The notes beneath the pieces were generated by a model that saw only the letters and a program-made list of their open reading frames with translations, ran no database searches and was not told the origin of the DNA. Both the position numbers and the translations under genes were made by a program. From an uncultured Acidobacteriota bacterium (GTDB lineage: Bacteria; Acidobacteriota; UBA6911; RPQK01; JAPXNP01), in the NCBI GenBank assembly GCA_963777605.1, contig CAVZRV010000015.1:128001-192000 (forward strand): a stretch of DNA of 64,000 bases, written 5' to 3'. Below are positions 1,246-24,746 of this stretch, in pieces (within the stretch, counting starts at the first letter, position 1; each line of letters starts with the position of its first letter).

Positions 1246-1290
1246 CATTAGTCATCGTCGTGAGAAATCCCAATACTCTAGATTTGCTTC

Positions 1291-2397
1291 ATGAGCCGTT
1301 CCGATCTGCCCATTCTGGAACCTGAAATCTCGTCCTCGCACTTGGCGGCTTCGATTCCCACGGACTTCCCGGAAAAGAAATCGCGCAAGCCCTTATTGAA
1401 CAGGCGCCGAGACGACCGCTCCCAGAGCATTCGTTCGGGCCTGCAAATCGGCTTTCTACTGTTGAATGTCTGGATCGGGTTCCAGTTTTACCTCTGGGTG
1501 CGCTACTACGAGACGGGCGGACATGGCTGGCACGTTCCCCGTCCTCCCGGAGTTGAGGGCTGGCTGCCGATTGCCTCGCTCATGAACCTCAAGGCATGGG
1601 TGATGACGGGCGCCGTTCCGCCGATTCATGCGGCGGGAATGTTCCTCCTGGTGGCCTTCCTGGTCATCTCGCTGATCTTTCGCAAGGCCTTTTGCGGCTG
1701 GCTTTGCCCCGTCGGAACCGTATCAGAAACCCTCTGGCAGTTTGGCAGAAAGCTCATGGGGAGAAACTTTCGGCTCCCGGCCGTGCTGGATTATCCCTTG
1801 CGAGCGCTGAAGTATCTTCTGCTGGCGCTGTTCCTGTACGCAGTGGGAAGCATGTCCGCGCCTGCCATCCGAAACTTCCTGGATGGCCCTTACGGAGTCG
1901 TCGCAGACGTCAAGATGCTCGGATTCTTCCGGAACCTCTCCCTGTTTGTGCTTGCTGTCGTGGGATTGCTTGTTGTTGCCTCCCTGTTCGTAAGGAACTC
2001 CTGGTGCCGTTACCTCTGCCCTTACGGCGCACTGATGGGCCTGTTCTCGCTGCTGAGTCCTCTCAAGATTCGGCGTGACGAGGATCTGTGTATCGACTGT
2101 GCCCGGTGTGCCCGGGCCTGCCCTTCCGGTCTGCCGGTGGACCGGAAAGATTCCGTTCAGTCCCCAGAGTGCGTCGGCTGCTACCAATGCGTTGCGGCGT
2201 GCCCCGCAGCCGGGGCGTTGGAAATGAAAGCTCCCGGCGGGCGGATCGTCCGCCCGGCCTGGATAGCCGCAGGAATTCTGGCCGTGTTCCTGGGCTCGGT
2301 CCTGGTCGCCCGACTGGGAGGTCACTGGAAGACTCAGTTGCCCGAAAGCACCTACTTCGAACTGGTGCCGAATGCCGACCAGTTCTCCCACCCCTGA
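1291..2397 (+). CDS. Membrane 4Fe-4S polyferredoxin (NapH/MauN/YccM-like)
   Basis: TM helices, CGWLCP and CRYLCP motifs, two ferredoxin motifs (CIDCARCARACP, CVGCYQCVAACP). Confidence 0.88.
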   Translation: MSRSDLPILEPEISSSHLAASIPTDFPEKKSRKPLLNRRRDDRSQSIRSGLQIGFLLLNVWIGFQFYLWVRYYETGGHGWHVPRPPGVEGWLPIASLMNLKAWVMTGAVPPIHAAGMFLLVAFLVISLIFRKAFCGWLCPVGTVSETLWQFGRKLMGRNFRLPAVLDYPLRALKYLLLALFLYAVGSMSAPAIRNFLDGPYGVVADVKMLGFFRNLSLFVLAVVGLLVVASLFVRNSWCRYLCPYGALMGLFSLLSPLKIRRDEDLCIDCARCARACPSGLPVDRKDSVQSPECVGCYQCVAACPAAGALEMKAPGGRIVRPAWIAAGILAVFLGSVLVARLGGHWKTQLPESTYFELVPNADQFSHP

Positions 2398-2494
2398 GAT
2401 TGATTCCAAAACCGGAGGCGGCTACGATCGTGGGGAGAAGCGCCTGTCGCCCCACCATCGCGGGGGCGCGGCCGGCAGTGCGGAGCAATGTGGC

Positions 2495-3169
2495 ATGGGA
2501 ACGGTGATTCTTGGGGGGGACGACCTCCGAATGCGGGTTGACGTGGAGTCGGTGGAGAAATCCCTCCGGATCCGCCCCGACCAGCCGGATGCGGCCCGGT
2601 TTCGGGAGATGATCGAGGAAGCCGCCCGAATCGCACGTCCCAAGGTGATCTTCCGCCGCACCGAAGTTGAGAGCATTGACGAACAGGGAATCGTTATCGG
2701 CGGGATCCGGTTAAACGGCCCTCTTCTGCACCGCAACCTCCGGGACACCGGCCAGGTGATCCCCTTCGTGGCAACCTGCGGACGGGAAGTAAATAAGTGG
2801 GCCACCCAGTTCAGCGATCTTCTCGAATCGTACTGGGCCGACGAGATCAAGAACCAGGCCCTGCTTGCGGCCCTCGGCTCCTTTCACGAGGTGCTCGAGT
2901 CACTCGAAGAGATTCACCACGCGACCATGAACCCGGGCTCCCTTCCCTCCTGGCCGATTGAGCAACAGGGGTCGCTCTTTCGAGTGCTGGGCGATGTCGA
3001 AGGAGCGATCGGGGTCAGCCTGACCGAAAGTTTCCTGATGATCCCGAACAAGTCAGTGTCCGGCATCGCCTTCCCATCGCAGGTCGGATGGCAGAGTTGT
3101 CTGCTCTGCGGCCGGCCCAACTGCCCCAACCGAAGAGCCGAGTATTGCCCTGACCGATTTGCGGAATAA
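2495..3169 (+). CDS. Stand-alone B12-dependent methionine synthase activation-domain-like protein
   Basis: NPGSLPSWPIEQQ..LF, IGVSLTESFLMIPNKSVSG and C-terminal CxxCxxxxCxxRR; start inferred at ATG 2495. Confidence 0.75.
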   Translation: MGTVILGGDDLRMRVDVESVEKSLRIRPDQPDAARFREMIEEAARIARPKVIFRRTEVESIDEQGIVIGGIRLNGPLLHRNLRDTGQVIPFVATCGREVNKWATQFSDLLESYWADEIKNQALLAALGSFHEVLESLEEIHHATMNPGSLPSWPIEQQGSLFRVLGDVEGAIGVSLTESFLMIPNKSVSGIAFPSQVGWQSCLLCGRPNCPNRRAEYCPDRFAE

Positions 3170-3308
3170 GTCAACAAAATCACTCCATATTCCCTTAAGT
3201 ATATATCCTGAAATCGTTTACGGGTCGGACGATCGCGGCCTCGTCTGGTATGATTGGAAGATCTTACCGTCAATAATATTGCGCCAGATAGGCGAAAGGA
3301 GGTCCAGA

Positions 3309-3866
3309 TTGAGTGGGAGGACGAGTTCAAGATGTGTGATCGGAGCGGTGCTGATGATGTTCGGGTGCACCATGATCCTGGCACAGGGCTCCGGTAAGTA
3401 CTCGTACGAGGGCGTTGCCGTCTGCGGGATGTGTCACAAATCAGCGAAACAGGGTGATCAGCTCAAGGTCTGGCAGGGGAGTGCCCACGCCAAGGCATTC
3501 CAGGCCTTGCAGAGCCCGGAAGCTGCGAAAATTGCCAAAGATAAAGGACTGAGTACAACCGCGGACAAAGCTGAAGCATGCCTGAAGTGTCATGCCAGCG
3601 GCTACAACGTTGATGCTGCTCGTTTGGGCAAGAGATTCAAGGTCGAAGACGGCGTGCAGTGTGAGACGTGCCACGGACCCGGATCGGCCTACAAGTCGAT
3701 GAAGATCATGAAGGACGCCAAGCTGGCCGAAGAGAACGGTCTGATCCTCCACAAAGACGTGGAGAAGTACTGCAAGTCGTGCCACAACGAAGAGAGCCCG
3801 ACTTACAAGCCCTTCAACTTCGCCGAGTCCTGGGCCAAGATCAAGCACCCCGTACCCGGCAAGTAA
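3309..3866 (+). CDS. Periplasmic tetraheme cytochrome c (c554-like)
   Basis: Four CxxCH motifs (CGMCH, CLKCH, CETCH, CKSCH), GVQCETCHGPGS, signal peptide; TTG start after AAAGGAGG RBS. Confidence 0.88.
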   Translation: MSGRTSSRCVIGAVLMMFGCTMILAQGSGKYSYEGVAVCGMCHKSAKQGDQLKVWQGSAHAKAFQALQSPEAAKIAKDKGLSTTADKAEACLKCHASGYNVDAARLGKRFKVEDGVQCETCHGPGSAYKSMKIMKDAKLAEENGLILHKDVEKYCKSCHNEESPTYKPFNFAESWAKIKHPVPGK

Positions 3867-3895
3867 TCCTGTTGTTACGACAGTCAATTTGAATG

Positions 3896-3937
3896 ATTAA
3901 AACAGCCATGGACCCGCGGGTCCATGGCTGTTTTAAT
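3896..3937. terminator. Perfect 42-bp palindrome, probable intrinsic terminator
   Basis: attaaaacagccatggacccg|cgggtccatggctgttttaat lies 30 bp after the cytochrome stop; T-tracts on both strands. Confidence 0.7.
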
Positions 3938-3981
3938 ATGGGGAGCCGATCCGGCGGGAAGGACGGCGGAGAGGGGGCAGT

Positions 3982-5691
3982 GTGAATCGCAGACGGTTTC
4001 TCAGGAATGCGGCCGGGGGCCTGTCCGTTCTCGGGCTGTCGCGGCCGGGGTTCCCTTCGGCAGGCCTTTACGTGGGAAATGGAGAGCCGAGAGTCTCCTG
4101 CGACGTCGCCATCATCGGTGGCGGCGTGGGAGGGGTAGCGGCCGCCCTCGCCTGTCTTCGATCCGGGCTTCGGGTTGTTTTGAGTGAAGAGACCGACTGG
4201 GTCGGCGGACAGCTCACGCAGCAGGGTGTTCCGCCCGATGAAAACCCTTGGATCGAGCAGTTCGGTTCGACTGCTTCGTACCGGAAATTCCGCCAGGACG
4301 TCCGAGACTACTACCGACGCTGGTACCCGCTCAGCCCGCGCGCGGCCTCCGACCCAGACCTGAATCCCGGCAACTGTGGGGTCTCTCGACTCTGTCACGA
4401 GCCACGCGTCGCCCTGGCGGTTCTCGAGTCTTACCTGGCCGCGGCCAGAAGTTCCGGACAGCTGCAAGTCCTCCTGAACCACCGCCCGGTCCAGGCCGAT
4501 GCCACGGGAGATCGAGTTGATTCGGTTCTGCTCGAAAACCAACTGGAAGGCTCTCGGGTTCTCATCAAAGCACACTACTTTGTTGATGCAACCGAGACCG
4601 GCGACCTGCTGCCCCTGACCGGAACCGAGTATGTCGTCGGGGCGGAGGCCCGTTCGGAAACGGGAGAGCCTCACGCGGCGGCGTCTTACCAGCCGGGGAA
4701 CGTCCAGTCCATCACCTGGTGCTTCGCCCTCAGTTACACTCCCGGAGCCGACTTCACCATCGACAAGCCCCGCGAGTACGACTTCTGGAGGAACTACCGG
4801 CCGGACCTGAAACCGCCCTGGCCCGGTCCGCTGCTCAGCTGGACCTATACCCATCCGATCACCCTGGGACCCTTCACGCGGGGGTTCGACCCTACTCCGG
4901 ACGCTCGCGAACCCGGCTTCTGGGTCTACCGAAGGCTTTGCGACCCGCGCAACTTCACCGATGATCGTCCCGGGATCACCGTGGTCAACTGGCCCCAGAA
5001 CGATTACCTGCTCGGGAGCATCATCGATCAACCACCGGATGAGACCGAACGTCACCTGGGGCAATCGCGACAGCTGAGCTTTTCCCTGGTCTACTGGCTG
5101 CAGACCGAAGCACCGCGCCCCGATGGCGGTGCGGGATGGCCGGGGCTGCGCCTGCGCGGCGACCTCATGGGGACCTCACACGGACTGGCAAAACGCCCCT
5201 ACATCCGCGAATCAAGGAGGATTCGATCCGAGTTCACCGTTCTCGAGCAGCACGTGGGAACACGAGCCCGGATGGAAGCCACCGGTTTGGACGAAGACTC
5301 GGTAACGGCGGAACGGTTTCCCGACAGCGTCGGAATCGGGAGCTACCGGATCGATCTCCACCCTTCGACGGGCGGAGACAACTACATCGACATCAGTTCA
5401 CTCCCGTTTCAGATTCCGCTGGGAGCCCTGCTCCCCCGTAGAGTCAGGAATCTCATCCCGGCCTGCAAGAACATCGGAACAACCCACATCACCAACGGCT
5501 GCTATCGGCTCCACCCGGTTGAGTGGAACATCGGCGAGTCCGCCGGCTTCCTGGCGAGTTACTGCCTCGAGCAACGAAAGGAACCTCAGCAGGTCCGGAG
5601 AACCAACGACCTGCTCAAGGAGTTCCAGGAATTGATTCAAAGACAGGGGGTCGAAATCGCCTGGCCCGATCCGCTCAGAAGTCCCCGGTAA
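3982..5691 (+). CDS. Tat-exported FAD-dependent oxidoreductase
   Basis: NRRRFL Tat motif, DVAIIGGGVGG, VDATETGDLLPL, PYIRESRRI, KNIGTTHITNGCYRLHPVEW. Confidence 0.85.
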   Translation: MNRRRFLRNAAGGLSVLGLSRPGFPSAGLYVGNGEPRVSCDVAIIGGGVGGVAAALACLRSGLRVVLSEETDWVGGQLTQQGVPPDENPWIEQFGSTASYRKFRQDVRDYYRRWYPLSPRAASDPDLNPGNCGVSRLCHEPRVALAVLESYLAAARSSGQLQVLLNHRPVQADATGDRVDSVLLENQLEGSRVLIKAHYFVDATETGDLLPLTGTEYVVGAEARSETGEPHAAASYQPGNVQSITWCFALSYTPGADFTIDKPREYDFWRNYRPDLKPPWPGPLLSWTYTHPITLGPFTRGFDPTPDAREPGFWVYRRLCDPRNFTDDRPGITVVNWPQNDYLLGSIIDQPPDETERHLGQSRQLSFSLVYWLQTEAPRPDGGAGWPGLRLRGDLMGTSHGLAKRPYIRESRRIRSEFTVLEQHVGTRARMEATGLDEDSVTAERFPDSVGIGSYRIDLHPSTGGDNYIDISSLPFQIPLGALLPRRVRNLIPACKNIGTTHITNGCYRLHPVEWNIGESAGFLASYCLEQRKEPQQVRRTNDLLKEFQELIQRQGVEIAWPDPLRSPR

Positions 5692-5694
5692 GGT

Positions 5695-5766
<72 letters not shown>

Positions 5767-5909
5767 TAAGGATCATATCCGTTCCTGTTACCGCGGATGC
5801 AGGATTCACGGTTTCAAGTTCAACCTTCCACGCGTCTGAGGGTTGGGCCAAGATTCGATTTCTGCGCGCCGTGCCATCTTGTCCGGCAGTTCAAAGCTCC
5901 TCCGCCACG

Positions 5910-5953
5910 TTTCACCCTTCGAATGATTCCCGCCGCCGAACGACGGGGCGGGG
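5910..5953 (-). repeat. Dispersed ~45-bp intergenic repeat, copy A
   Basis: Reverse complement ccccgcccc...gggaatcattcgaagggtgaaa resembles the copies at 38551, 57007 and 57420. Confidence 0.6.
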
Positions 5954-6196
5954 ATCATCCGGCGGCGGCGGGCGCACGAGTCCCCCGGGCAAAGCCTCCG
6001 GCGGGGGCCAAACCCCAAACCCCACTTATTAAGAACGAACGTGTCGGCAAAAATGCGAAAAAATACTCGATAAAAGACAAGTTTCCGCAGATTCCCAACC
6101 GGCCACATCTCTCACTGGCCTGAAAGCCACTCGCCGAGTCGGTATGATCAGAGTAAGGTCTTTAAAATTCAAAACGTACAATTCGGGAGCTGAATA

Positions 6197-6799
6197 ATGA
6201 CGAACGTACTGATTCTTTACTACAGCATGTACGGGCACATTGAAACCATGGCGAAGGCAGTCGCCGAAGGGGTACGCAGCGTCGAAGGGGTCGAGGCTAC
6301 AATCAAGCGGGTAGAAGAACTCATGCCGAAGGAAACGGCGCAGAAGGCAGGAGCCAAGCTCGACCAGAGCGCTCCGATCGCCACCGTGGAGGAACTGCCG
6401 GAATACGACGCGATCATCTTCGGCACGCCGACGCGATTCGGCAACATGTGCGCCCAGATGCGCAACTTCCTGGATCAGACCGGGAAACTATGGGTCAGCG
6501 GCAAACTGGTTGGCAAGGTGGGAAGCGTCTTCACCTCGACGGCGACCCAGCACGGAGGCCAGGAAACCACGATCACCTCGTTCCACAGCACCCTCCTCCA
6601 CCAGGGCATGATCGTGGTGGGAGTGCCCTATGCGTGCCAGCGACTGCTCAACATGGAGGAAATCACCGGTGGGTCCCCCTATGGTGCGAGTACCCTTGCA
6701 GGGAGCGACAACAGTCGTCAGCCGTCACAGAATGAACTGGAGATTGCCCGGTACCAGGGCGCCCATGTCGCGGGGATCGCGAAGAAACTCGCCACCTGA
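6197..6799 (+). CDS. wrbA: NAD(P)H:quinone oxidoreductase WrbA
   Basis: [26 protein letters not shown] and GGSPYGAST motifs. Confidence 0.95.
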
Positions 6800-6908
6800 G
6801 ATTGCGAAGATGGCCTCCAATTGAATTGAGGAAGAGCCGCAGAGTTATCTCGGGTCACGTTCTCTTTAGCCTGGATTTTCGCGCCGGCCCCTCCCCACTG
6901 ACTCTCCG

Positions 6909-8388
6909 CTATCGTGCCCAGGATTCTTCGATTTCTTCCAGCGTTCGCCCTTTGGTCTCGGGGACGTAGCGCCAGAAGAACCAGGTCCCGCAGAAGCAAA
7001 TCAGAGCGAAAGTCAGAAAATCCCACGTGCATCCCGTACCGGGCAACGTACCAGGGAAACAGGAGAGCACTGACCGAGTTGGTGCCCCAGTTGACCAGTG
7101 TCGCTACGGACATGGCCCGCCCGCGGACCCGGTTCGGGAAAATCTCGGGCGTCAGCACCCAGATCACCGCGCAGATCGAGAGCGCCACGCAGGCCATGTA
7201 GACACACAGGACGAGGGCGATCCACGGGCCCAGCTGCGGACGGCTCAGAACCAGCGCTTGGGTCCCGGAAATGTCAACGAAGTGGGGGTTCCCAAGGAAA
7301 AAGAGGATTCCGGTAACGGCCAGCGAAACCGCGACGAGACTCATTCCCCCAATCAGCAGCGGCCGTCGCCCCAGCCGGTCGATGACGCTGAGCGCCACCA
7401 GCGTGAAGACCAGGTTGACGAGTCCAAACCCTACCTGAAACTGGAAGGCCCCGATCCTCTCGAATCCCGCGTACTGGAGAACAGTCGGCCCGTAGTAAAC
7501 GACGATGTTGACGCCCGTCAACTGCCCGAAGAAGGACAGCGCAACTCCAACCAGGAGCGCCATCCGCAACCCGGGCCGCACCAGTTCGCGAAGTGTCCCG
7601 GCTTCATGGGCAAGCGCCGTCCGGATTTCCTCAATCAATTTGCGCGCTTCGGCGCGACCTCCGACTCGGGCCAGGATAACCTCGGCGGCTCCAAACCGCC
7701 CCTCTTTGGCCAGCCAGCGAGGACTTTCCGGGACCCAGAAGAGGAGGATCAGGAAGAGGCCCGCCGGGATCATTTCCGCCCCGAACATCCCCCGCCAGAC
7801 TTCGGACACCAGCAGCCAGTTGAGGATTCCGCCCCCGAATGCCGCCGGGCTGTTTTGGGCGTGACTCAACAGAAGCCAGTTTGAGGAGTAAGCAGCCAGG
7901 ATCCCGACGACGATCGAGAGTTGATAGAGCCCACCGAGGCGGCCTCTTGACCGGGCGGGAACGAACTCCGAGATGAACATGGGTGCGAGGACCGAAGCCA
8001 TCCCGACTCCCCAGCCTCCAATAATGCGGGCACAGATCAGAATGGTGAAATCAGGTGGTATAGCGGAGAACAGCGCCGACACAAAGAAGAAGAGCGCCGA
8101 AAGCTTAAGAATCGGCCGGCGACCGAACCGGTCACCCAGGTACCCGGCCACGGCTGCGCCGAAGACACAGCCAACCAGGGCAGAACTGCCGAACCACCCG
8201 ACCTGGAGTTTGCTCAGGCCAAACTGCTTCTCGACGAACCCGAATGTCCCCGAGATCACCGCCGTATCGAACCCGAAGAGAAGTCCTCCGAGGGAGGCCA
8301 CAATGCAAATCAGCGCCAGGTAGACGGAACTGCCCATTCCGGTACTCGCCTGATCTTTCTGTCTCCCCGCGCGCGCATTCTCACCCAA
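6909..8388 (-). CDS. MFS sugar porter (XylE-like), frameshift near 7017-7020
   Basis: GGLLFGFDTAVISG, DRFGRR, PESPRWL, EIFPNRVRG; removing one base from the A-run restores ...VPETKGRTLEEIE with a stop at 6909. Confidence 0.88.
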
Positions 8389-8427
8389 TTCGGATTTCTT
8401 TCCCAGCCCGCCCGAAATCTACTCCCG

Positions 8428-10014
8428 TCACTTCGGCTGCCGCTCGTTGGCCCCGATATCGGGTTTACCCTCTTCCGGCACCGGGTTTCCCCAGAAATCC
8501 CGCCCTCCGTTTCCATCAATCTGGATACCGGCGTCAATGCAGGGAGAAGCGGCCTGCAATTGGTAGCCGTTGAGTGAGTCGAAACCCGTACCGCCGGAAC
8601 CCGGGTCAACCAGGAGAGGATCTTTCCGATAGGCTCGAGCATCGGGAGGCAAAGCCTCCTGTTTCCCGAAATAGACATTGTTCTCGAACCGGTTGTTCAG
8701 GCTGAGGCCGAATCCATCCTCAGTTTTGAAGAGTCCGTCTTCAATCCGGGCAGTTGCATGTCGATAGCGGGCTGTCCCTTCCGAGTAAACGATATTGTTC
8801 TCGAAGGAGACTCCTTGAGACCAACCGTCCCAGTCGGAGAAGAGAAGCACGTCCACCATCTGATCCTTGCTCACGTAAAAGACGTTGTTGTAAATTTGCG
8901 CGTCTTCTATCGTTCCGGCAATGTGAAAGGTCCGGACCTGGTCGCCCTGGCTGATGTTGTAGCGAACGATGGTTCCGGTATTCGGAACCATCCGTGGCAG
9001 CTTCCAGTTTCCGCTCGAACAAATCAGCATGAATCCACCTTCGTTGTCGTGACTGTAGTTGTACTGGAAGATCGTGTTCATGCAGTTCCCGTCGGAATCA
9101 AACGCCTGGCCGTCCTTGGTGCCTTTCACGCCGCTGACCTCGTTGAACTGGATCAACGTGTTGTCACTGCTCCAGGGCCAGATCCCCGCCGCATAGTCGT
9201 CACAGCGAGTACGCCCTCCCTCGAGCCGATTGTGTTCGACGACAGCACCGTCGCAGCCCCAGACCTTGATCCCGTCGCCCCCAATGTCCTGCAGGAGGTT
9301 CTCCCGGATAACGACGTTGAGGCTGGGGAACCAGGACTCGCGGTCGGAGTTCTCACTGTAGCCGCTGATGCCGTTGCGATCGGTTCGGAGCAGGTGACAT
9401 TTCTCAATCCGCAGACCATCAAACCGGCTGGGAATCCTCTTGCCGCCGTTCTCCCAGAGGATTCCGTGTCCCTCACCCCGGTCCTCCTTGATCAGAGATC
9501 CGTTGACATCGTGCACGAACAGGTCCTTCAGGTAGATGTGGTGCACGATCCCAAAGTCCCAGGCTGCGACTCTGACACCGTATCGAAAGGGAACCCGTTC
9601 CCTGCCCTCGTTCGTCAACTCCAGGCCGCTGACTTCCCAGTATTCCTGGTTATTCAGAAGCAACGCTTCCCCATAGCGCCCTTCAGCATCGATGCGTGGA
9701 CGCGGGCCGTCGCCGTAGACACCCACGACAACCGGCGCAGACTCGCTACCCGAACCCTTTGGCGCAAGCCGGCCGGAATATCGGCTTCCTGCCTTGAAAA
9801 GGATCTTGTCACCCGACGCGAATGCGGTCTCATTGACCGGATCAAGAGTCTTCCATGCCAGATCGGAGGACCGGCCCGAGTTGCCGTCGTCGCCCGAGAG
9901 CGAGTCCACGTAGTAGAGCGTATTTCCCGGAGATTGCGAGACCGAACCCGGTCCCAGGCAGGCCGCCGCCAGGGCCACGACCACTATCAACACGCCTCGA
10001 AGGATCACTTTCAT
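8428..10014 (-). CDS. Secreted right-handed parallel beta-helix (pectin-lyase-like) protein
   Basis: Signal peptide, YYVDS..GDDGNSG, DGQAFDSD, FQYNYSHDNEGG, C-terminal SPCIDAG...PDIGA. Confidence 0.78.
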   Translation of the reverse strand: MKVILRGVLIVVVALAAACLGPGSVSQSPGNTLYYVDSLSGDDGNSGRSSDLAWKTLDPVNETAFASGDKILFKAGSRYSGRLAPKGSGSESAPVVVGVYGDGPRPRIDAEGRYGEALLLNNQEYWEVSGLELTNEGRERVPFRYGVRVAAWDFGIVHHIYLKDLFVHDVNGSLIKEDRGEGHGILWENGGKRIPSRFDGLRIEKCHLLRTDRNGISGYSENSDRESWFPSLNVVIRENLLQDIGGDGIKVWGCDGAVVEHNRLEGGRTRCDDYAAGIWPWSSDNTLIQFNEVSGVKGTKDGQAFDSDGNCMNTIFQYNYSHDNEGGFMLICSSGNWKLPRMVPNTGTIVRYNISQGDQVRTFHIAGTIEDAQIYNNVFYVSKDQMVDVLLFSDWDGWSQGVSFENNIVYSEGTARYRHATARIEDGLFKTEDGFGLSLNNRFENNVYFGKQEALPPDARAYRKDPLLVDPGSGGTGFDSLNGYQLQAASPCIDAGIQIDGNGGRDFWGNPVPEEGKPDIGANERQPK

Positions 10015-19184: not shown

Positions 19185-21182
19185 ATGGAGAACATGTCAC
19201 GATGGTCCATCATTCTCGTCGCCGGAATGGCTGTGTCCAGTGTCCTGGGCACCGAACGTCCTTTCTTTGATCGGTTCCACCACTCGGCGGTCTTCGGAGA
19301 AGAACGGAACTACCGGATTTTCCTCCCCGCCGATTACGGCACGTCGAATCGCAACTATCCCGTGATCTACTACTTCCACGGTCACAGCGACCGCTATACC
19401 CTGGAGCGCTACGACAACGGGCGCGACACCGTGCCCCGGATCGCTGCGTTCGTCGCCGAGAACCCCGTTATCGTCGTCTCTGTAGACGGCTACGTGGCCC
19501 GCGACTACACCGGCTTCTACGGAGGGTCCCCCTGGGACGTCCGCAAGGAGGGAGGCCAGTTTGACTTTGGCGAGTACTTCCTGGAGCTGGTGAACCACAT
19601 TGACGGGAACTACCGGACGCTGACCGATCGCCGCCACCGGGCCACCTGCGGGCTCAGCATGGGCGGGTTCATGAGCCTCTATCTCAGTGCGAGGTATCCC
19701 GACCTGGTCGGGAGCGCCTCTGCCTTCAACCCGGGGCCGGAATTCTACGTGGGAGAGCCGGGTCGGCGGATCCTCTGGCGTCCCAAGGATCACGTCTCGA
19801 GCCACCGGCAGTCCCGGGTCCGCCTCGTTCGGGCAAGCGGGGACTTCATCAGCCAATACCACGAAGAGACCCGTGACGCCTACTCGAGGGACCACGCCGT
19901 TGACTTCGAGTACCGGCGGGACGAGTTTCACCGCCACGCCGCAACCTCTATCGAAGAGACATTCCGGTTTCACATGACGGCCTTCTCCGAGTCCTGGCTC
20001 GACAACGTTCCGGAACTCTGGAGCTACTGCAGCGCCTATCGCAGCTTCCAGGCCTGGGGCTTGTCCGCGGAGGTCGCCGCCGCCGGACCTGCCTTCACCT
20101 ATCTCGAGAATGTCCGGCAGAGCGGCATGAGAATTCGGACCCGGCGCTGGGCGCCGGACGGTCCTCCTGCCGACGTCTCCATCAGCGTAACCACAGCACC
20201 TCTCTATCGGCCCGACCAGGACTACACCCTTACCGACCTTGCCCTGTCCGACAACCACGTCACGAGCCTGCAGGTACGGTCGGATCACCAGGGCCGGATT
20301 CACTTCCAGGTTGACGGGAGCGGCCATCAGGTCAGCCTCTCGGGGCCGGGAACCGGCGCCGAACCCCCGGTGGTTCTCCCCGGGAAAGAGCCCCTGGTTC
20401 GAGCCCAGGCCGGGACGGCCGTCACACTCGCTCTTCCGGTCTACAACCCGAGAACCACCGTCATGGACCGCGTCGAAGGGGAACTGACGAGCGAATACCC
20501 CACCGTGGAGATCCTCACGCCCCGGTTTGCCGTTGATTCGCTCGGCGCGGCGACGACCATCCGCCCGGAACTGCGTGCCCGGTTCACAGCGGGGGAAGGT
20601 TATCTCGAGCGGGCCCGCCTTCATCTGAAACTCATTTATGACGGTTGGTACGAAACGGCGATCGACTATGACGTCATGGTTGTGCCCGAGGACGTTCCCG
20701 CCCCTCTTAAGTTCGAGATTCTGGACGGGCGGTCAATCACGTTCAACGTCTTCCACCAGAAAGGGAACCAGGGAGGCGGCAGTGCGATCGAGAGGCCGGT
20801 GACAGAGGGGCGCGGAAACGGGAATGGAAGGCTGGAGCCGGGCGAACAGGCCACGGTATGGGTCCAGATCCAACAGGGGCTGGATCCCTTTGACAAGAAC
20901 AACTGGTACCGCTGCAAGGCGTTGAGCGATTCGCCCTGGATCACGGTAGCGGCGGACATCGAGGAGCAAAAGCAGTTGGAGTGGACGGGCGCCCAGGAAC
21001 GAACCAGCCTCATCGAGATGTCCGCAGATGCCCCGTCAGGGACAAGAATCAGGCTCCTGCTGGACAACGAGTCGTGGACCTTCTATTACACTCCGGATGT
21101 CCGCTACGGTTCGGAGCCCCTCTACCAGGCCTTCCAATTCCACAAACGCCATCTGCATCGACTGGAACTGACGGTCCCCTGA
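19185..21182 (+). CDS. Secreted alpha/beta-hydrolase esterase with long unknown C-terminal region
   Basis: Signal peptide, RIFLP..Y, YPVIYYFHG and GLSMGG nucleophile elbow. Confidence 0.75.
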   Translation: MENMSRWSIILVAGMAVSSVLGTERPFFDRFHHSAVFGEERNYRIFLPADYGTSNRNYPVIYYFHGHSDRYTLERYDNGRDTVPRIAAFVAENPVIVVSVDGYVARDYTGFYGGSPWDVRKEGGQFDFGEYFLELVNHIDGNYRTLTDRRHRATCGLSMGGFMSLYLSARYPDLVGSASAFNPGPEFYVGEPGRRILWRPKDHVSSHRQSRVRLVRASGDFISQYHEETRDAYSRDHAVDFEYRRDEFHRHAATSIEETFRFHMTAFSESWLDNVPELWSYCSAYRSFQAWGLSAEVAAAGPAFTYLENVRQSGMRIRTRRWAPDGPPADVSISVTTAPLYRPDQDYTLTDLALSDNHVTSLQVRSDHQGRIHFQVDGSGHQVSLSGPGTGAEPPVVLPGKEPLVRAQAGTAVTLALPVYNPRTTVMDRVEGELTSEYPTVEILTPRFAVDSLGAATTIRPELRARFTAGEGYLERARLHLKLIYDGWYETAIDYDVMVVPEDVPAPLKFEILDGRSITFNVFHQKGNQGGGSAIERPVTEGRGNGNGRLEPGEQATVWVQIQQGLDPFDKNNWYRCKALSDSPWITVAADIEEQKQLEWTGAQERTSLIEMSADAPSGTRIRLLLDNESWTFYYTPDVRYGSEPLYQAFQFHKRHLHRLELTVP

Positions 21183-21199
21183 TCCAGGGCAAAAGAAAA

Positions 21200-21820
21200 G
21201 GTCCCAAATGATATCCGCAAGTTGTCAGACCGAAAGCCTCTCACTCAAGTAAGGACAGTGGTTAATCAATCCTCACCGAGTGTCCGGCAACTGACTCAAC
21301 CTGTTGCCTCAACCTTGCGGCTGAAGTGCCCAGGCCGAATCCCTCGCCGACCAGCAAACCATCGCTCACCGGGGAAGAAACCCGAAGACCTCCTCTCCGG
21401 AAGACCCGGTCTGCCCGAGACTTCGTTCGAAGCCGTTCACCCGCCAGTCTCTCGATTGACAGGCTCACTTTACCCGTTGGGTGCAGACCCGACATTGCAG
21501 ACCCAGGATTGCTCCTGTCTCCGTATGCCGGCCTTGGCGTCCCGGTTCTCCGAAGAAAACCGATCGGCTTCGGACTTCCCAGATCGACCTTTCGATCGAC
21601 CGGTTCCGGCCCTTCCCATGCGGGCAAAACAACCTCACCGAATCAACCTTGAAATTCAGGGCTGACGCGTGGCCTACCGGGAAAGCTGCTTCTTTCGAAG
21701 CGACTCGCCTGATCCGCCTGACCTCCGGCAGAAAAGCGACGGTGAAGATGCTTCGCTACCGAACGTCCCGAGGTCGCTGCCTCTTTTGGTATCCGCCAAC
21801 TGCGTTTACCTTTTGGGACC
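21200..21820 (-). ncRNA. Candidate large (~620 nt) structured non-coding RNA of unknown family
   Basis: Termini pair (GGUCCCAAA/UUUGGGACC), 3' U-tract, upstream sigma70-like promoter, five GNRA and two cUUCGg hairpins that read correctly only on the minus strand. Confidence 0.75.
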
Positions 21821-21827
21821 GAGGTGC

Positions 21828-21855
21828 ATGTTATCTCCACCAGGCGCGCCGGCAA
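21828..21855 (-). promoter_or_regulatory. Sigma70-like promoter for the ncRNA candidate
   Basis: TTGCCG-16 bp-TAACAT, then 7 nt to the first G of the terminal stem (21820). Confidence 0.6.
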
Positions 21856-22068
21856 AGGCTTTTTTGAACCCCGGAGGGTTGCACAAGGATTGTGCAAAAG
21901 TCCCTGTTTTCAGGAGGTTCCGACCGGTGCTGAATTTCGTCAATTTCGTCACACTACTTACACAACTTTCACACAGGCTTTTCCACCGATTGTGGAAAAT
22001 CCAAATTTCTCAACCAGATTTCGACCTCCCAGGAATCTGACGAATGCACGATATAGGCGTATCTCAGG

Positions 22069-23373
22069 TCAAAAATAGACCACGAACTGGGTGGGGCCGC
22101 CGGGAGGGCGATCGAGGAAGAACTCGAATCCGTGGCGAACCAGGATCTCCCGGATCAGTGTGAGCCCAATTCCCTGCCCGTTCTTCTTGGTGCTGAAAAA
22201 CGGGGTGAAGAGGTTCTTTTGCACTTCAGGGTCCAGGTCCTCGCCCGAATCCTCGATCGCCACAAAGTAACGATCCTCTCTGCACCCGATGCGGACGCCG
22301 ATCGTCCCTTCTTCCCCGATCGCCTCGAGGGCGTTCTTGAAGACATTCAGAAAGACCTGCTCGATCTGGTTCTTGTCCATCGGGATCGGCGGAACCAGCT
22401 CCTCGACCATCCATATCCACTGAACCTTCGCTTCCCGGCTCCACGGCTCGAGAAGGGTCTCGAGATCCTTCAGCAGTTCATGCAGATCGCAAGGTCTCTT
22501 CTCAGGTCCCGGAAGGCGAACGACCTGGGCGAAGCGGTTCATGAACTCAGACAGGTTCTCCACTCTTGAAATTGCTACGGCCATTGCGTTGGAGAAGTCT
22601 CCCCGGTCCTCGGGCGACAGCTGGTCCTCGTAGTTCATGCTGGAAATCAGGAGAGAGCGCACCGCTCCGACCGAGTTGTTCACCTCGTGAGACATCATTC
22701 GGATCAGTTTTTCGTAGGCTGCTTTCTCACTCAGCCTCAGTTCTTCGGTGAGTTCCTCCATGGTAACGAACTCCCGTGCAAAGCCCTGGTCGAGGAAGTT
22801 CGCCTTGAGGCACCGGATCCGGCGGCTTCCGTGCAGCGGCAGGACCTGGGACTCCCCGAGCGACAACTCGGCAAGCGCATCGGCGAACGGGCTGCCCAGG
22901 GACTGCAGGGTCTTTCCGTGGAGCGTTTCCGCGGGCAACTGCAGGAGCTTCTCGGCACTGGGATTAGCCAGGGCAACCCGACCGTCAAAGTCGAAGGTGA
23001 GCACGCCCGCAGGACTGACCGCAAGGATTTTGTCCATGAAATAGTGCTGTTCCCTCAGCCGGGTCCGCTCCTCCCTCAGTTGCTCGATCATCCGGTTGTA
23101 GACATCAATCAGCCGGTCCATCTCGGGTTGGCCGGTTTCGAGGAACTTGGAAGTGAAGTCCTTTTCACCAATCAACTCGGCGCCGGTCTGAATCAGGTCG
23201 AGAGGTACGAACAGGCGGTGGATGAGTCGGAATCCCACCGCAGTCGAGACCGCCAGGCCCAGTTCGACGATCAGCAGCCAGGGTCGCCGGTCCGCAAAAA
23301 CGTACATTGCAGCCGCCGCGAGGAAGAGATGAAGCACGATCACGTAAATGACAAGCTTGCGCTGAAGGCTCAC
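22069..23373 (-). CDS. Sensor histidine kinase (TM, PAS, HisKA, HATPase)
   Basis: MSHEVNN H-box, NVFKNALEA, FTPFFSTKKNGQGIGL. Confidence 0.9.
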   Translation of the reverse strand: MSLQRKLVIYVIVLHLFLAAAAMYVFADRRPWLLIVELGLAVSTAVGFRLIHRLFVPLDLIQTGAELIGEKDFTSKFLETGQPEMDRLIDVYNRMIEQLREERTRLREQHYFMDKILAVSPAGVLTFDFDGRVALANPSAEKLLQLPAETLHGKTLQSLGSPFADALAELSLGESQVLPLHGSRRIRCLKANFLDQGFAREFVTMEELTEELRLSEKAAYEKLIRMMSHEVNNSVGAVRSLLISSMNYEDQLSPEDRGDFSNAMAVAISRVENLSEFMNRFAQVVRLPGPEKRPCDLHELLKDLETLLEPWSREAKVQWIWMVEELVPPIPMDKNQIEQVFLNVFKNALEAIGEEGTIGVRIGCREDRYFVAIEDSGEDLDPEVQKNLFTPFFSTKKNGQGIGLTLIREILVRHGFEFFLDRPPGGPTQFVVYF

Positions 23374-24746
23374 GGGCTGAGTCCGTACTTTTCGAAGCGG
23401 CGATAAAGAGCGGCGCGGCTCAATCCCAATGCTTCGGCGACCTTCGAGACATTGCCTGCATAGGCATCGAGGCACTTTACGATCATCGCCCGCTCGATTT
23501 CCTCCATCGTCATACTGCCCGCCGTCGGCAGAAAATCTTTCGATCGGCCCGACATCTCCACCTGGGAGGTAATCGAGAAATCTTCCACCGAGAACACATC
23601 CTTCTCCGTGACCAGCATGGTCCGCTCAATCAACTGCCGCAGCTGGCGAATGTTTCCCGGCCAACTCTGACAGCGGAGCCATCCCATCGCCGACTCCTCG
23701 ACCCGGACCGGTCCCCGACGGTGAACCTGACTGAGGTTATCGAGAAAGTGCCGGACCAGAAGCGGGATGTCCCCGGGTCGCTCGCGCAGTGGCGGGAGAT
23801 TGACCGAGATCAGGTTCAATCGGTAAAGGAGATCTTCCCGGAACTCGCCCCGCTCCACCATTTCAGCCAAGTTTCGGTTGGTGGCCGAAACGACTCTCAC
23901 GTCGAGGCTGAGGGGAGCGCTCGTCCCGAGCACTTCGTAGGTCCGGTCCTGGAGAACGCGGAGCAGTTTGACCTGGGCATTGAGGTCGAGGTCTCCGATT
24001 TCGTCCAGGAAGATGGTCCCGGAATTCGCCAGGGCGAAACGCCCTTTTCGGTCGTGGTAGGCGTCAGTGTACGCCCCTCGAACGTGTCCAAACATCTCAC
24101 TTTCGAACAGCGTCGAGGAGATCCCTCCGAGGTTGACCTTCACGAACGGCCCTTCCCTGCGGAGGCTGTTCAAATGAATCGCTTCGGCGATCATTTCTTT
24201 GCCGGTCCCGCTTTCGCCGGTAATCAGGATCGATGCATCGGTTGCGCTGACGCGTCCGATCACTTCCAGGATCTTGAGGAAGCGGGGGTCACGGCCGATT
24301 ATCCTGCCAAAATCGTACCGTTCATCCAGTTCCGACCGGCTCCTTCCGGGCTGGCGTTTTCCCGCGGTGTCAGACGTCCGGGCAAGGCCAAGGGTCGTCG
24401 AAACGGTCTGCCGCAATTGCTGGTTGGACCAGGGCTTGGTCATGAAATCGCTGGCGCCTTTCTTGATGCCCTGGACGGCCAGATTGATCGAACCCCATGC
24501 CGTGAGCAGGACAACGGGCAGGTCGGGACGAATCTTCTTGATCTCCTCGAGCAGTGCAAGCCCTTCCGCACCGCTGGTATCCCGGGAGAAGTTCATATCC
24601 TGGATCACCAGTTCAACCCTTGATCCTTTGATCACCCGCAGTGCCTCGCCAGGATCGGAAGCCGCCCTGGCAACCAGGCCTTCCTGTTTGAGCAGGAGAC
24701 AAACCGAGGTCGTCACCGAATTGTCGTCATCAACAACAAGAATCAT
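23370..24746 (-). CDS. Sigma54-dependent response regulator (NtrC family)
   Basis: Receiver domain, GESGTGKE, ESEMFGHVRGAYTDA (GAFTGA variant), FLDEIG, Fis-type HTH. Confidence 0.93.
   Translation of the reverse strand: MILVVDDDNSVTTSVCLLLKQEGLVARAASDPGEALRVIKGSRVELVIQDMNFSRDTSGAEGLALLEEIKKIRPDLPVVLLTAWGSINLAVQGIKKGASDFMTKPWSNQQLRQTVSTTLGLARTSDTAGKRQPGRSRSELDERYDFGRIIGRDPRFLKILEVIGRVSATDASILITGESGTGKEMIAEAIHLNSLRREGPFVKVNLGGISSTLFESEMFGHVRGAYTDAYHDRKGRFALANSGTIFLDEIGDLDLNAQVKLLRVLQDRTYEVLGTSAPLSLDVRVVSATNRNLAEMVERGEFREDLLYRLNLISVNLPPLRERPGDIPLLVRHFLDNLSQVHRRGPVRVEESAMGWLRCQSWPGNIRQLRQLIERTMLVTEKDVFSVEDFSITSQVEMSGRSKDFLPTAGSMTMEEIERAMIVKCLDAYAGNVSKVAEALGLSRAALYRRFEKYGLSP

What the first reader, a model, noticed from the sequence alone, without database searches (positions are those of the whole stretch)
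21191..21855. Candidate ~620-nt large structured ncRNA with its own promoter and paired ends
Seen: the 886-bp gap lies between two convergent genes, so it needs no promoter. Its minus strand nevertheless has TTGCCG-16-TAACAT placed 7 nt before G21820. The 5' end GGUCCCAAA pairs with the 3' end UUUGGGACC (21208-21200), which is followed by UUUUCUUUU; a second stem CGCAGUUG/CAACUUGCG continues the closure. Hairpins carry GAAA loops (21582-21601, 21688-21701), GCAA loops (21307-21326, 21504-21517), a GAGA loop (21440-21463) and cUUCGg loops (21369-21400, 21542-21563). Long-range helices include CGAAGCCG/CGGCUUCG and UUGCCCG/CGGGCAG. Many pairs are G-U wobbles that work only on this strand. Established: GNRA/UUCG enrichment and closed termini are typical of stable functional RNAs, and RNAs of this size include OLE, ROOL, GOLLD and MISL. 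Inference: a stand-alone large RNA, possibly of an undescribed class; I could not match it to a known family.
Basis: partly seen in the sequence, partly recalled or inferred. Interest (0 to 1): 0.9.

Follow-up and report, generated by a model that had tools for sequence, protein, structure and literature searches.

The report
Abundant new large structured bacterial RNA
The gap holds a real, heavily transcribed, roughly 620-base non-coding RNA gene of a family absent from the RNA catalogue, found across one order of Acidobacteriota, and its promoter region shares a DnaA-box-like control module with the dnaA gene.

Summary
The minus strand of 21820-21200 folds far better than shuffles (z -10.55; plus strand -2.0). 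Rfam 15 gives no usable match. Contigs of four salt-marsh metatranscriptomes lie on 21202-21810, with adapter letters at both ends.

The element has relatives. I collected 58 unique full-length members (242-718 nt), including a 377-nt second copy in the same genome. The 3' motif was found in 17 of 28 sampled genomes of the window's order. It was found in 1 of 373 sampled genomes of the rest of the phylum.

All members share these features:
- a promoter at a fixed distance from the RNA start;
- a conserved terminal rod in which the 5' and 3' ends pair, with compensatory changes at 5 of 15 pairs;
- a U tract after the rod;
- an interior rich in UUCG and GNRA hairpins.

A 17-sequence subclass shows 40 of 110 pairs with changes on both sides.

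About 140-180 nt upstream lies an array of DnaA-box-like repeats. The same array precedes dnaA in 4 of 4 genomes checked. The loci are not replication origins.

The RNA is not 6S, RNase P, tmRNA, a Y RNA (no Ro gene in 0 of 16 genomes) or a riboswitch. Its function is unknown. My best guess is a trans-acting RNA or RNP, possibly under DnaA control.

The parts
21200..21820 (-). The RNA itself, about 620 nt. The predicted 5' end is G21820 or G21819. The 3' end is at about 21200, plus a few U.
   Evidence: Fold z -10.55. Metatranscriptome contigs lie on 21202-21810, with adapter-like loose ends at 21804/21809/21810 and at 21202. Relatives have the same ends.
21797..21820 (-). 5' strand of the terminal rod: P1 GGUCCCAAA (21820-21812), A, P2 GGUA (21810-21807), AA, P3 CGC (21804-21802), and an extension AGUUG.
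   Evidence: Family consensus is GUCCCAAGGGGUAGACGC.
21200..21224 (-). 3' strand of the terminal rod: CAACUU, GCG (21218-21216), GA, UAUC (21213-21210), A, UUUGGGACC (21208-21200).
   Evidence: Family consensus is GCGAAUAUCACUUGGGAC. Compensatory changes occur at 5 of 15 rod pairs in 58 members. The window itself carries the A-U version of pair 8.
21191..21199 (-). U tract (UUUUCUUUU) directly after the rod. It is the presumed termination signal.
   Evidence: The 3' motif is followed directly by a T run in the 11 copies viewed and in the 27 loci that also carry the 5' motif, with two weaker tails (L048, L069). T-richness (at least 6 T in the next 12 bases) was one of my selection criteria for the 58 members, so that set does not test it.
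21828..21833 (-). -10 hexamer TAACAT, 7 nt before G21820.
   Evidence: The aligned position holds TAGACT/TAGAAT/TATACT in 27 relatives.
21850..21855 (-). -35 hexamer TTGCCG, 16-nt spacer.
   Evidence: TTG is conserved at this position, preceded by a T-rich stretch, in relatives.
21879..21897 (-). Palindrome TTGCACA-N5-TGTGCAA, about 60-78 nt upstream of the RNA start.
   Evidence: It is conserved in most classes. The 466-468-nt class has an ATCCACA box here instead.
21948..21999 (-). Array of DnaA-box-like repeats: TTTTCCACA (21999-21991), GGTGGAAAA (21987-21979), TGTGTGAAA (21975-21967), GTGTGAC (21954-21948).
   Evidence: Of 32 relatives' upstream regions, 29 have at least one box with at most 1 mismatch (mean 1.25 against 0.05 expected), all between -180 and -141. 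The same module lies upstream of dnaA in 4 of 4 genomes.
21625..21781 (-). First interior domain, closed by GGCAGCGACCUC (21781-21770) pairing with GAGGUUGUUUUGCC. The conserved GAGGC.GCG.C motif opens it.
   Evidence: The analogous helix in the 17-member class (columns 29-35 with 180-187) is 99% paired. The island 21625-21646 is shared with a diverged homolog contig (record 1).

Best explanation
This is the gene of a stand-alone, abundant, highly structured non-coding RNA. It belongs to an RNA family that is not in Rfam 15 and that occurs in most families of one order of Acidobacteriota.

Shown or directly read:
- It lies on the minus strand, behind a sigma-70-type promoter (-35 at 21855-21850, -10 at 21833-21828).
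- Its first and last roughly 24 nt pair into a conserved rod. The rod has 8 bp, one G/A-A mismatch, 4 bp, a 2x2 purine loop, and then 3 or more bp.
- The rod is followed at once by a U tract.
- The interior holds ten or more hairpins capped by GNRA and UUCG loops. Interior length varies from about 200 to 680 nt among relatives.
- Contigs from RNA libraries lie on exactly this stretch.

Inferred:
- The whole transcript closes into one hairpin whose 3' strand plus the U tract ends transcription, and the clamped ends protect the RNA (about 60%).
- The invariant rod is a binding platform for a conserved protein or other partner, so the RNA acts in trans as an RNP or scaffold, while the variable interior gives stability or lineage-specific modules (about 45%).
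- Transcription is controlled by DnaA, through the box array that the gene shares with dnaA's own upstream region. RNA level would then follow the replication-initiation state (about 50%).

The window's copy is a diverged paralog. The 377-nt copy on contig C7 sits at the position syntenic with other genera.
For: Fold: z -10.55 on the minus strand against -2.0 on the plus strand.

No known family: Rfam 15 gave 0 gathering hits in the 64-kb window and in 11 relatives' loci. It gave 0 hits at E<=10 on the 242-nt member.

Relatives:
- A query from G010 found 5' and 3' end matches 380-700 nt apart in 10 of 15 other genomes of the family.
- An exact 3' motif scan of 185,579 species genomes gave 59 loci. 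Of these, 27 carry the 5' motif 242-695 nt upstream. All 27 are labelled Acidobacteriota/Acidobacteria (26) or Aminicenantes (1).
- In all I have 58 unique full-length members.

Range:
- The 3' motif with at most 1 mismatch occurs in 17 of 28 sampled genomes of the order.
- It occurs in 0 of 10 genomes of other orders of the class.
- It occurs in 1 of 363 genomes of other classes.

Promoter: the -10, -35, T-rich stretch, palindrome and box array align in 27 upstream regions.

Covariation:
- Rod pairs are 13/-12 AU 49, GC 7; 16/-15 CG 48, AU 4; 17/-16 GC 43, AU 7; 18/-17 CG 55, UA 1, GC 1; and 8/-7 GC 57, AU 1, which is the window.
- In the 17-sequence class, 110 pairs are 94.7% paired against 86.6% in shuffles (0 of 500 reach it).
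- In that class, 40 pairs change on both sides against 30.6 +/- 2.7 in shuffles (0 of 500).
- Slid controls give 37-47% paired.

Hairpin loops: of 261 MFE hairpins in 34 members, 168 are tetraloops, 85 are UUCG and 34 are GNRA.

Expression:
- All 24 of 24 listed runs are RNA libraries holding 0.20-0.47 of the sampled words.
- In 4 of 4 runs laid, contigs lie on 21202-21810 with word depths of about 240 to 10,000.
- Loose ends at 21804, 21809, 21810 and 21202 read as sequencing adapter; that identity is recalled.

Strain variants:
- Of 21 variants, 11 fall on unpaired positions of the centroid.
- Of the 10 on paired positions, 9 keep the pair. The null is 0.59 and the binomial P is 0.04.
- On the plus-strand fold 3 keep the pair and 6 break it.

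No conserved reading frame.

DnaA module:
- It is in 29 of 32 upstream regions, at -180 to -141.
- The same inverted pair plus direct repeat lies upstream of dnaA in G000, G010, G004 and G014.
Against: There is no experiment on function, partner or DnaA binding.

Expression caveats:
- The runs are kept as contigs, which cannot show strand, exact ends or level.
- RNA libraries can hold DNA (tool notes).
- All runs are of one habitat and year, and may be one campaign.

Structure caveats:
- The interior of the window copy could not be aligned with other long members. Its own helices therefore rest on energy and on strain variants only (P 0.04).
- The z-score uses only 20 shuffles.
- The structure tested was derived from the same alignment, and the 17 sequences form about three clades, so the compensatory changes are few independent events.

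Signal caveats:
- The consensus scanner called neither the promoter nor the terminator.
- Termination by a stem whose halves lie 600 nt apart is unusual and untested.

DnaA caveats:
- The box consensus I used is recalled.
- Another protein could bind these repeats.
- The same inverted pair also lies at the ends of an insertion-sequence copy.
Confidence: 0.85

Rival explanations
1. It is a self-assembling or catalytic 'ornate' RNA that works without a protein, like the cage-forming ROOL/GOLLD/OLE complexes. The rod would be only a structural clamp.
For: The size, the many GNRA/UUCG-capped hairpins and the high abundance fit large ornate RNAs. From the listing and abstract of PMC12286853, GOLLD, ROOL and OLE form homo-oligomers.
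Against: Ornate RNAs keep a conserved interior. Here almost only the termini are conserved in sequence: the invariant columns are 1-16 and the last 16, and interior length varies from about 200 to 680 nt. No Rfam match exists.
Confidence: 0.1
2. It is a cis-acting leader or attenuator (riboswitch-like) for downstream genes. The U tract would be a regulated terminator.
For: In three other families of the order, the RNA lies on the same strand upstream of asd/lysC-dapB-dapA. The gap is 49-175 nt in L044 and in the 466-468-nt class.
Against: In the window the next gene is convergent (esterase-like, 19185-21182 +). In the f1 family the downstream neighbour is a ThuA-like gene instead. In L063 and L048 the operon is more than 1 kb away. 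There is no Rfam lysine or other riboswitch hit. The interior is hypervariable, unlike a ligand pocket. The RNA accumulates as a discrete species.
Confidence: 0.04
3. It is a bacterial Y-RNA-like molecule whose terminal stem binds a Ro (Rsr) protein.
For: The paired 5'/3' ends carry a conserved, mismatch-bearing stem, a variable interior and a U tail. The stem sequence resembles Y RNA stems, but I recall this resemblance and did not compute it.
Against: A TROVE/Ro domain (PF05731) was found in 0 of 16 genomes of the family, while the control found it in Deinococcus and Bacteroides. No Y_RNA or YrlA match came up in Rfam, even at E<=10. The size is 2-6 times that of known Y RNAs (recalled).
Confidence: 0.03
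4. It is a 3' UTR or processing product of the upstream histidine-kinase / sigma-54 regulator operon, not an independent gene.
For: It lies on the same strand, 250 nt downstream of the kinase stop codon at 22069.
Against: Relatives have unrelated upstream genes but the same promoter at a fixed distance. Adapter-bearing contig ends lie at 21804-21810, near the predicted start.
Confidence: 0.02
5. The box array marks a replication origin or a DnaA-titrating locus, and the transcript is a by-product or primer.
For: There are three to four DnaA-box-like repeats at about 11-13-bp spacing next to a strongly transcribed G-rich RNA.
Against: GC skew changes sign only next to dnaA (C7, between the 920-kb and 960-kb bins; dnaA at 969,320). 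It does not change at either RNA locus. In G004 the RNA is 2.3 Mb from dnaA on a 5.13-Mb contig. There are two copies per genome. A titration role for the boxes is not excluded.
Confidence: 0.04

Closest known systems
Y RNAs (including bacterial YrlA) and other RNAs with conserved termini and a variable body
   Same: The 5' and 3' ends pair into a conserved stem with mismatches. A U-rich tail follows, the interior is variable, and abundance is high. The function of such RNAs resides in a protein bound to the stem.
   Different: The genomes have no Ro/TROVE gene (0 of 16). There is no covariance-model match. The RNA is much longer (242-718 nt), has no tRNA-like module, and has its own sigma-70-type promoter with an upstream box array.
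Large ornate bacterial RNAs: OLE, ROOL, GOLLD (and raiA, HEARO)
   Same: It is a stand-alone RNA of hundreds of nucleotides, with many GNRA/UUCG-capped helices, of unknown function and narrow taxonomic range.
   Different: No Rfam match. The phylum is different. The interior is not conserved in sequence or length. The gene partners recalled for those families (for example the oap genes of OLE, phage contexts of ROOL/GOLLD) were not looked for here; the flanking genes that I annotated are an esterase-like gene, a histidine kinase and sigma-54 regulator, a ThuA-like gene and a lysine-biosynthesis operon.
6S RNA
   Same: It is an abundant, mostly double-stranded RNA whose ends pair.
   Different: The genome has a canonical 6S RNA elsewhere (C11:160022-160175, 63.5 bits). 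There is no 6S match here. The RNA is three times longer and no central bubble is evident.
DnaA-box-controlled promoters (dnaA autoregulation in E. coli and B. subtilis, recalled)
   Same: An inverted pair plus a direct repeat of boxes close to the recalled consensus lies upstream of the gene. It is identical in design to the module upstream of dnaA in the same genomes.
   Different: The controlled product here is a large non-coding RNA. My paper search for 'DnaA box' with 'noncoding RNA' and 'Acidobacteria' (listing and abstracts only) surfaced no DnaA-controlled large structured RNA among its 15 listed papers. Binding is untested.

Membership tests
New family described here (terminal-rod RNA of one Acidobacteriota order) | 5' motif GUCCCAAGGGGUAGACGC or a close variant at the transcript start | tested here: met
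   The window has GUCCCAAAAGGUAAACGC, 3 differences from the consensus.
New family described here (terminal-rod RNA of one Acidobacteriota order) | 3' motif GCGRAUAUCAYUUGGGAC pairing with the 5' motif, then a U tract | tested here: met
   The window has GCGGAUAUCAUUUGGGAC followed by C and UUUUCUUUU. Its A-U at pair 8 compensates for the consensus G-C.
New family described here (terminal-rod RNA of one Acidobacteriota order) | Conserved promoter (-10 TAnAnT 7-8 nt before +1, -35 TTG) and an upstream box array at about -140 to -180 | tested here: met
   The window has boxes at -180 and -168.
OLE / ROOL / GOLLD / raiA / HEARO (Rfam 15 models) | Match to the family's covariance model | tested here: not met
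   There were 0 gathering hits in the window. No such family appears among 5 hits at E<=10 in 20900-22300. There were 0 hits in 11 relatives' loci.
Y RNA / YrlA | A Ro (TROVE-domain) protein encoded in the genome, usually nearby | tested here: not met
   PF05731 was found in 0 of 16 genomes of the family. The control found it in 2 of 14 reference genomes.
Y RNA / YrlA | Match to the Rfam model; tRNA-like module | tested here: not met
6S RNA | Match to RF00013 at this locus | tested here: not met
   The only RF00013 match in the genome is at C11:160022-160175.
RNase P RNA / tmRNA | Match to RF00010 / RF00023 at this locus | tested here: not met
   Both lie elsewhere: C10:347871-348243 and C8:393018-393373.
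Lysine riboswitch or other cis-regulatory leader | Covariance-model match and a position directly upstream of the regulated gene on the same strand | tested here: not met
   There is no model match. The window's downstream gene is convergent. Linkage to lysC is seen only in some families.
DnaA regulon | DnaA boxes in the promoter region | tested here: met
   The module is shared with dnaA upstream regions in 4 of 4 genomes.
DnaA regulon | DnaA binding and DnaA-dependent transcription | not testable with these tools
   This needs EMSA or ChIP, plus DnaA depletion.

The most novel reading that the evidence does not exclude
The large RNA, its shorter paralog and an unrelated conserved RNA of about 75 nt (C27:339376-339460) share one promoter design with dnaA. 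Together they form a small DnaA regulon made mostly of non-coding RNAs. On this reading the large RNA is an effector that reports or feeds back on replication-initiation status. For example, its invariant rod might bind and titrate a replication or cell-cycle protein. It would also end its own transcription through a whole-transcript hairpin whose two halves are the first and last 24 nt.
Probability: 0.25. Interest if true: 0.9.

Novelty: categorically new. Interest (0 to 1): 0.82.

Why it matters
Acidobacteriota are among the most abundant soil and sediment bacteria and are poorly studied. An RNA that assembles at high word depth from environmental RNA libraries, yet has no catalogue entry, is a gap in the parts list of these organisms.

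Three features make it more than another motif:
- Strictly conserved paired termini surround a body that varies threefold in length. This points to a function carried by the ends, such as a protein platform.
- The terminal helix is followed at once by a U tract. This suggests termination that depends on closing the whole molecule.
- The upstream module is the one found at dnaA itself. This would link a large non-coding RNA to the replication initiator, a link I did not find in the papers searched.

The family is large enough (58 unique members) for R-scape, SHAPE and cryo-EM work. Its rod is an obvious bait for finding the partner.

Tried and rejected
Replication origin. I rejected this. GC skew changes sign next to dnaA only, and dnaA is 0.4-2.3 Mb from the RNA loci.

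Y RNA. I rejected membership. No TROVE gene was found (0 of 16 genomes).

Housekeeping RNAs. I rejected these. 6S, RNase P and tmRNA lie elsewhere in the genome.

Mobile-element origin. There was no match in 72,556 plasmid records or 50,697 phage records with blastn.

Conserved peptide. Matches between groups are short (12-62 aa), occur on both strands and switch frames.

Direct BLAST with the window's RNA. It found nothing in 40 relatives at E<=0.001. At E<=0.1 it gave only a 51-nt match. That match was the lead to the family.

Metagenome scan with the 5' 18-mer.
- It returned 105 stretches, of which 80 were listed.
- My strict two-motif screen passed 1 member.
- About four more look like members by eye.
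- Most hits are an unrelated stretch next to a duplicated tRNA-Pro 3' end.

Cross-species alignment of the long class. It failed in the interior, so no covariation is claimed for the window's own interior helices.

Alignment tools. mafft-qinsi was not installed, so I used plain MAFFT modes instead.

Order census with the 5' motif at 2 or fewer mismatches. It gave 58 of 76 genomes, but the reversed control pattern hit 36 times, so this figure is inflated.

CsrA-type sponge. I did not pursue this. Hairpin loops are mostly UUCG and GNRA, not GGA-bearing.

Cover on the flanks. In the four runs laid, the bins 20300-21169 and 21866-22900 had no contig cover, except 1.45 in one bin of X2.

Closed or limited sources.
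- Supplementary files of papers are closed. Motif lists in the supplements of the comparative-genomics papers listed could hold this element under another name, and I could not see them.

Papers.
- For some searches I saw the search listings and the starts of abstracts only.
- For the two 2026 preprints I saw only term counts. All were 0 for 'acidobacteri', 'dnaa', 'large ncrna' and 'metatranscriptom'.
- I opened no paper's main text.
Full report
THE LOCUS. The gap 21183-22068 lies between an esterase-like gene on the plus strand (19185-21182) and, on the minus strand, a HAMP-PAS histidine kinase (22069-23475) preceded by a sigma-54 response regulator. These are the hexamers TTGCCG and TAACAT, the 16-nt spacer, the 7 nt to G21820, the complementary ends, the U tract and the second closing stem. 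The minus-strand RNA 21825-21191 folds to -298.5 kcal/mol. Twenty dinucleotide-preserving shuffles average -242.3 +/- 5.3, which gives z -10.55. The plus strand gives z -2.0. The listed GAAA, GCAA, GAGA and UUCG hairpins appear in the MFE or centroid fold. Two proposed long-range helices do not.

NOT A KNOWN FAMILY.
- Rfam 15 (4227 models) gives no gathering-level match anywhere in the window.
- At E<=10 in 20900-22300 it gives only five weak matches (E 0.5-7), none covering the element.
- Eleven loci of relatives give 0 matches, and the shortest relative gives 0 at E<=10.
- The genome has its 6S RNA, RNase P RNA and tmRNA elsewhere.
- No plasmid or phage record matches.

FINDING THE FAMILY.
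- BLAST with the window's sequence found only a 51-nt match in genome G010.
- Reading that locus showed a 639-nt element with the same first 50 nt, the same last 20 nt and a U tract.
- With the G010 element as query, matches to the two ends lay 380-700 nt apart in 10 of the 15 other genomes of the family. A second copy turned up in the window's own genome at C7:212605-212981, 377 nt long.
- An exact scan of one genome per species (185,579 species) with the 18-nt 3' motif gave 59 loci. Of these, 27 also carry the 5' motif 242-695 nt upstream. All 27 are labelled Acidobacteriota/Acidobacteria or Aminicenantes. The other hits, in many phyla, lack the 5' motif.
- After a census with the 5' motif, I hold 58 unique full-length members of 242-718 nt.

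TAXONOMIC RANGE.
- In an even sample of 401 genomes of the phylum, the 3' motif with at most 1 mismatch occurs in 17 of 28 genomes of the window's order.
- It occurs in 0 of 10 genomes of the other orders of the class, and in 1 of 363 genomes of other classes.
- That last hit has its mismatch inside the P1 strand and is probably chance. The reversed control pattern hit once.
- Families that lacked the exact 3' motif carry variant rods. One example is f14.

WHAT IS CONSERVED. Sequence conservation is almost confined to the first 18 and last 18 nt, plus a short CC..GAGGC.GCG.C motif that follows the 5' rod strand.

The ends pair as follows:
- P1, 8 bp;
- a G-A mismatch (A-A in the window);
- P2, 4 bp including a G-U pair;
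- a 2x2 purine loop, GA opposite AA;
- P3, 3 bp;
- a variable extension that covaries.

Across the 58 members the rod pairs read as follows:

| Pair | Counts |
|---|---|
| 13/-12 | A-U 49, G-C 7 |
| 16/-15 | C-G 48, A-U 4 |
| 17/-16 | G-C 43, A-U 7, G-U 4 |
| 18/-17 | C-G 55, U-A 1, G-C 1 |
| 8/-7 | G-C 57, A-U 1 (the window) |
| 2/-1 | U-A 50, U-G 8 |

THE INTERIOR. The interior differs so much between genera that MAFFT cannot align the long members. Within the 443-468-nt class (17 sequences) RNAalifold predicts 110 pairs, and 40 of them change on both sides. On that structure:
- 94.7% of cells pair, against 86.6 +/- 0.4% in shuffles (0 of 500 reach it);
- the covariation score is 0.390 against 0.258;
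- sliding the partners by 1-3 columns drops pairing to 37-47%.

The structure was derived from the same alignment and the sequences form about three clades, so these are few independent events.

In MFE folds of 34 members, 168 of 261 hairpins are tetraloops, 85 of them UUCG and 34 GNRA. The RNA strand is 36% G. No reading frame is conserved.

EXPRESSION.
- All 24 listed public runs that hold the stretch are metatranscriptomic RNA libraries labelled salt marsh, 2020, with 0.20-0.47 of the sampled words. They carry 24 coded study ids but may be one campaign.
- I laid the contigs of four of them on 20300-22900. In 4 of 4 runs the contigs lie on 21202-21810. Summed word depths per bin run from about 240 to about 10,000.
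- Contig ends at 21804, 21809 and 21810 run on into letters that I recognise from memory as Illumina adapter. One contig end at 21202 is preceded by such letters.
- This is what short fragments ending at the ends of an RNA of about 620 nt would give.
- Contigs cannot show strand, exact ends or level, and RNA libraries may hold DNA.
- One 549-nt contig matches only 21204-21224, 21338-21362 and 21625-21646. It is a diverged homolog that marks three conserved islands.

STRAIN VARIANTS. Twenty-one variants are listed.
- Eleven fall on unpaired positions of the centroid.
- Nine of the ten on paired positions keep the pair, and seven of these turn a G-U into a Watson-Crick pair.
- A random transition would keep the pair with probability 0.59, so the binomial P is 0.04.
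- On the plus-strand fold only 3 keep a pair and 6 break one.

THE PROMOTER REGION. In 27 aligned upstream regions the -10 hexamer (TAGACT, TAGAAT or TATACT; TAACAT in the window) lies 7-8 nt before the first G. A TTG -35 element follows a T-rich stretch. A palindrome TTGCACA-N5-TGTGCAA lies near -65. At -140 to -180 there is an inverted pair plus direct repeats of a 9-mer close to the DnaA-box consensus, which I recalled from memory.

- With at most 1 mismatch, 29 of 32 upstream regions hold at least one box. The mean is 1.25 against 0.05 in Markov shuffles, and all 40 boxes fall between -180 and -141.
- The same design lies about 100-155 nt before the start codon of dnaA in all four genomes examined: G000, G010, G004 and G014.
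- A scan of the window's genome for the inverted pair gives 24 hits, against 7 in the reversed genome.
- The full module is found at the two RNA copies, at dnaA, at three copies of an insertion sequence, and at one more site, C27:339209.
- That last site heads a different, conserved RNA candidate of about 75 nt.

The RNA loci are not origins. GC skew changes sign only beside dnaA. In G004 the RNA is 2.3 Mb from dnaA.

NEIGHBOURS. No neighbouring gene is conserved throughout the family.
- In three families the RNA precedes asd/lysC-dapB-dapA on the same strand.
- In the window's family it precedes a ThuA-like gene.
- The window's copy sits elsewhere, facing a convergent gene.

The 377-nt copy is therefore the syntenic one, and the window's 619-nt copy is a diverged paralog.

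INTERPRETATION. I regard the following as shown or nearly so:
- a discrete, abundant transcript;
- a family with conserved promoter, paired ends and U tract;
- structure under selection;
- no known family.

I regard the following as inferred:
- termination by closure of the terminal rod;
- a partner bound to the invariant, mismatch-bearing rod;
- control by DnaA.

The pattern of invariant termini around a body that varies threefold in length works like Y RNAs and similar scaffolds. Membership in that family fails on the Ro gene (0 of 16 genomes) and on the model.

LITERATURE. My searches gave no description of such an RNA (listings and abstracts only, term counts only). Supplements were closed.

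VERDICT. This is a real and new RNA family. Function remains open, and the DnaA link is the most interesting lead.

Noticed in passing
own genome G000:C7:212605-212981 (+); locus L025:1503-1879: A second, 377-nt copy of the same RNA family sits in the window's genome. It has the consensus rod, the same promoter and box array, and a ThuA-like gene downstream, as in genus g3. It is the syntenic copy; the window's copy is the diverged paralog.
   Followed up: partly
own genome G000:C27:339209-339460 (+); locus L246:310-565: A third transcription unit has the same upstream design: an inverted box pair, a palindrome and an extended -10 TGGTATACT. It heads an RNA candidate of about 75 nt with an invariant 45-nt C/U-rich core containing CCUCC motifs. 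It matches at 82-89% identity in 9 of 15 other genomes of the family. There is no Rfam hit at E<=1, and the fold z is only -1.5.
   Followed up: partly
own genome G000:C12:4788-4830, C35:128100-128125, C41:3023-3050: Three copies of an insertion-sequence end carry the same inverted DnaA-box-like pair plus a direct repeat, next to a transposase-like frame.
   Followed up: no
own genome G000:C7:968841-968872; L213:740-775; L214:735-775; L215 minus strand, script offsets 821-860: The dnaA gene of four genomes of the family has the box module TTTTCCACA-N3-4-TGTGGA..-TGTGGA about 100-155 nt before its start codon. GC skew places the origin next to dnaA in G000.
   Followed up: yes
L030:5821-7955; L044:3450-7497: In three other families of the order, the RNA lies just upstream, on the same strand, of a lysine-biosynthesis operon: asd, aspartate kinase with ACT domains, dapB and dapA.
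   Followed up: partly
L104:2530-2615 and about 40 other metagenome loci: The family's 5' 18-mer also occurs, probably by chance, next to a duplicated 3' end of tRNA-Pro in unrelated metagenome contigs. This looks like an attachment-site duplication of an integrated element. ARAGORN and Rfam call only the intact tRNAs.
   Followed up: partly
window 23370-23475: The listed frames of the histidine kinase (22069-23475) and the sigma-54 response regulator (23370-24746) overlap by 106 nt. The kinase probably starts at a later start codon.
   Followed up: no
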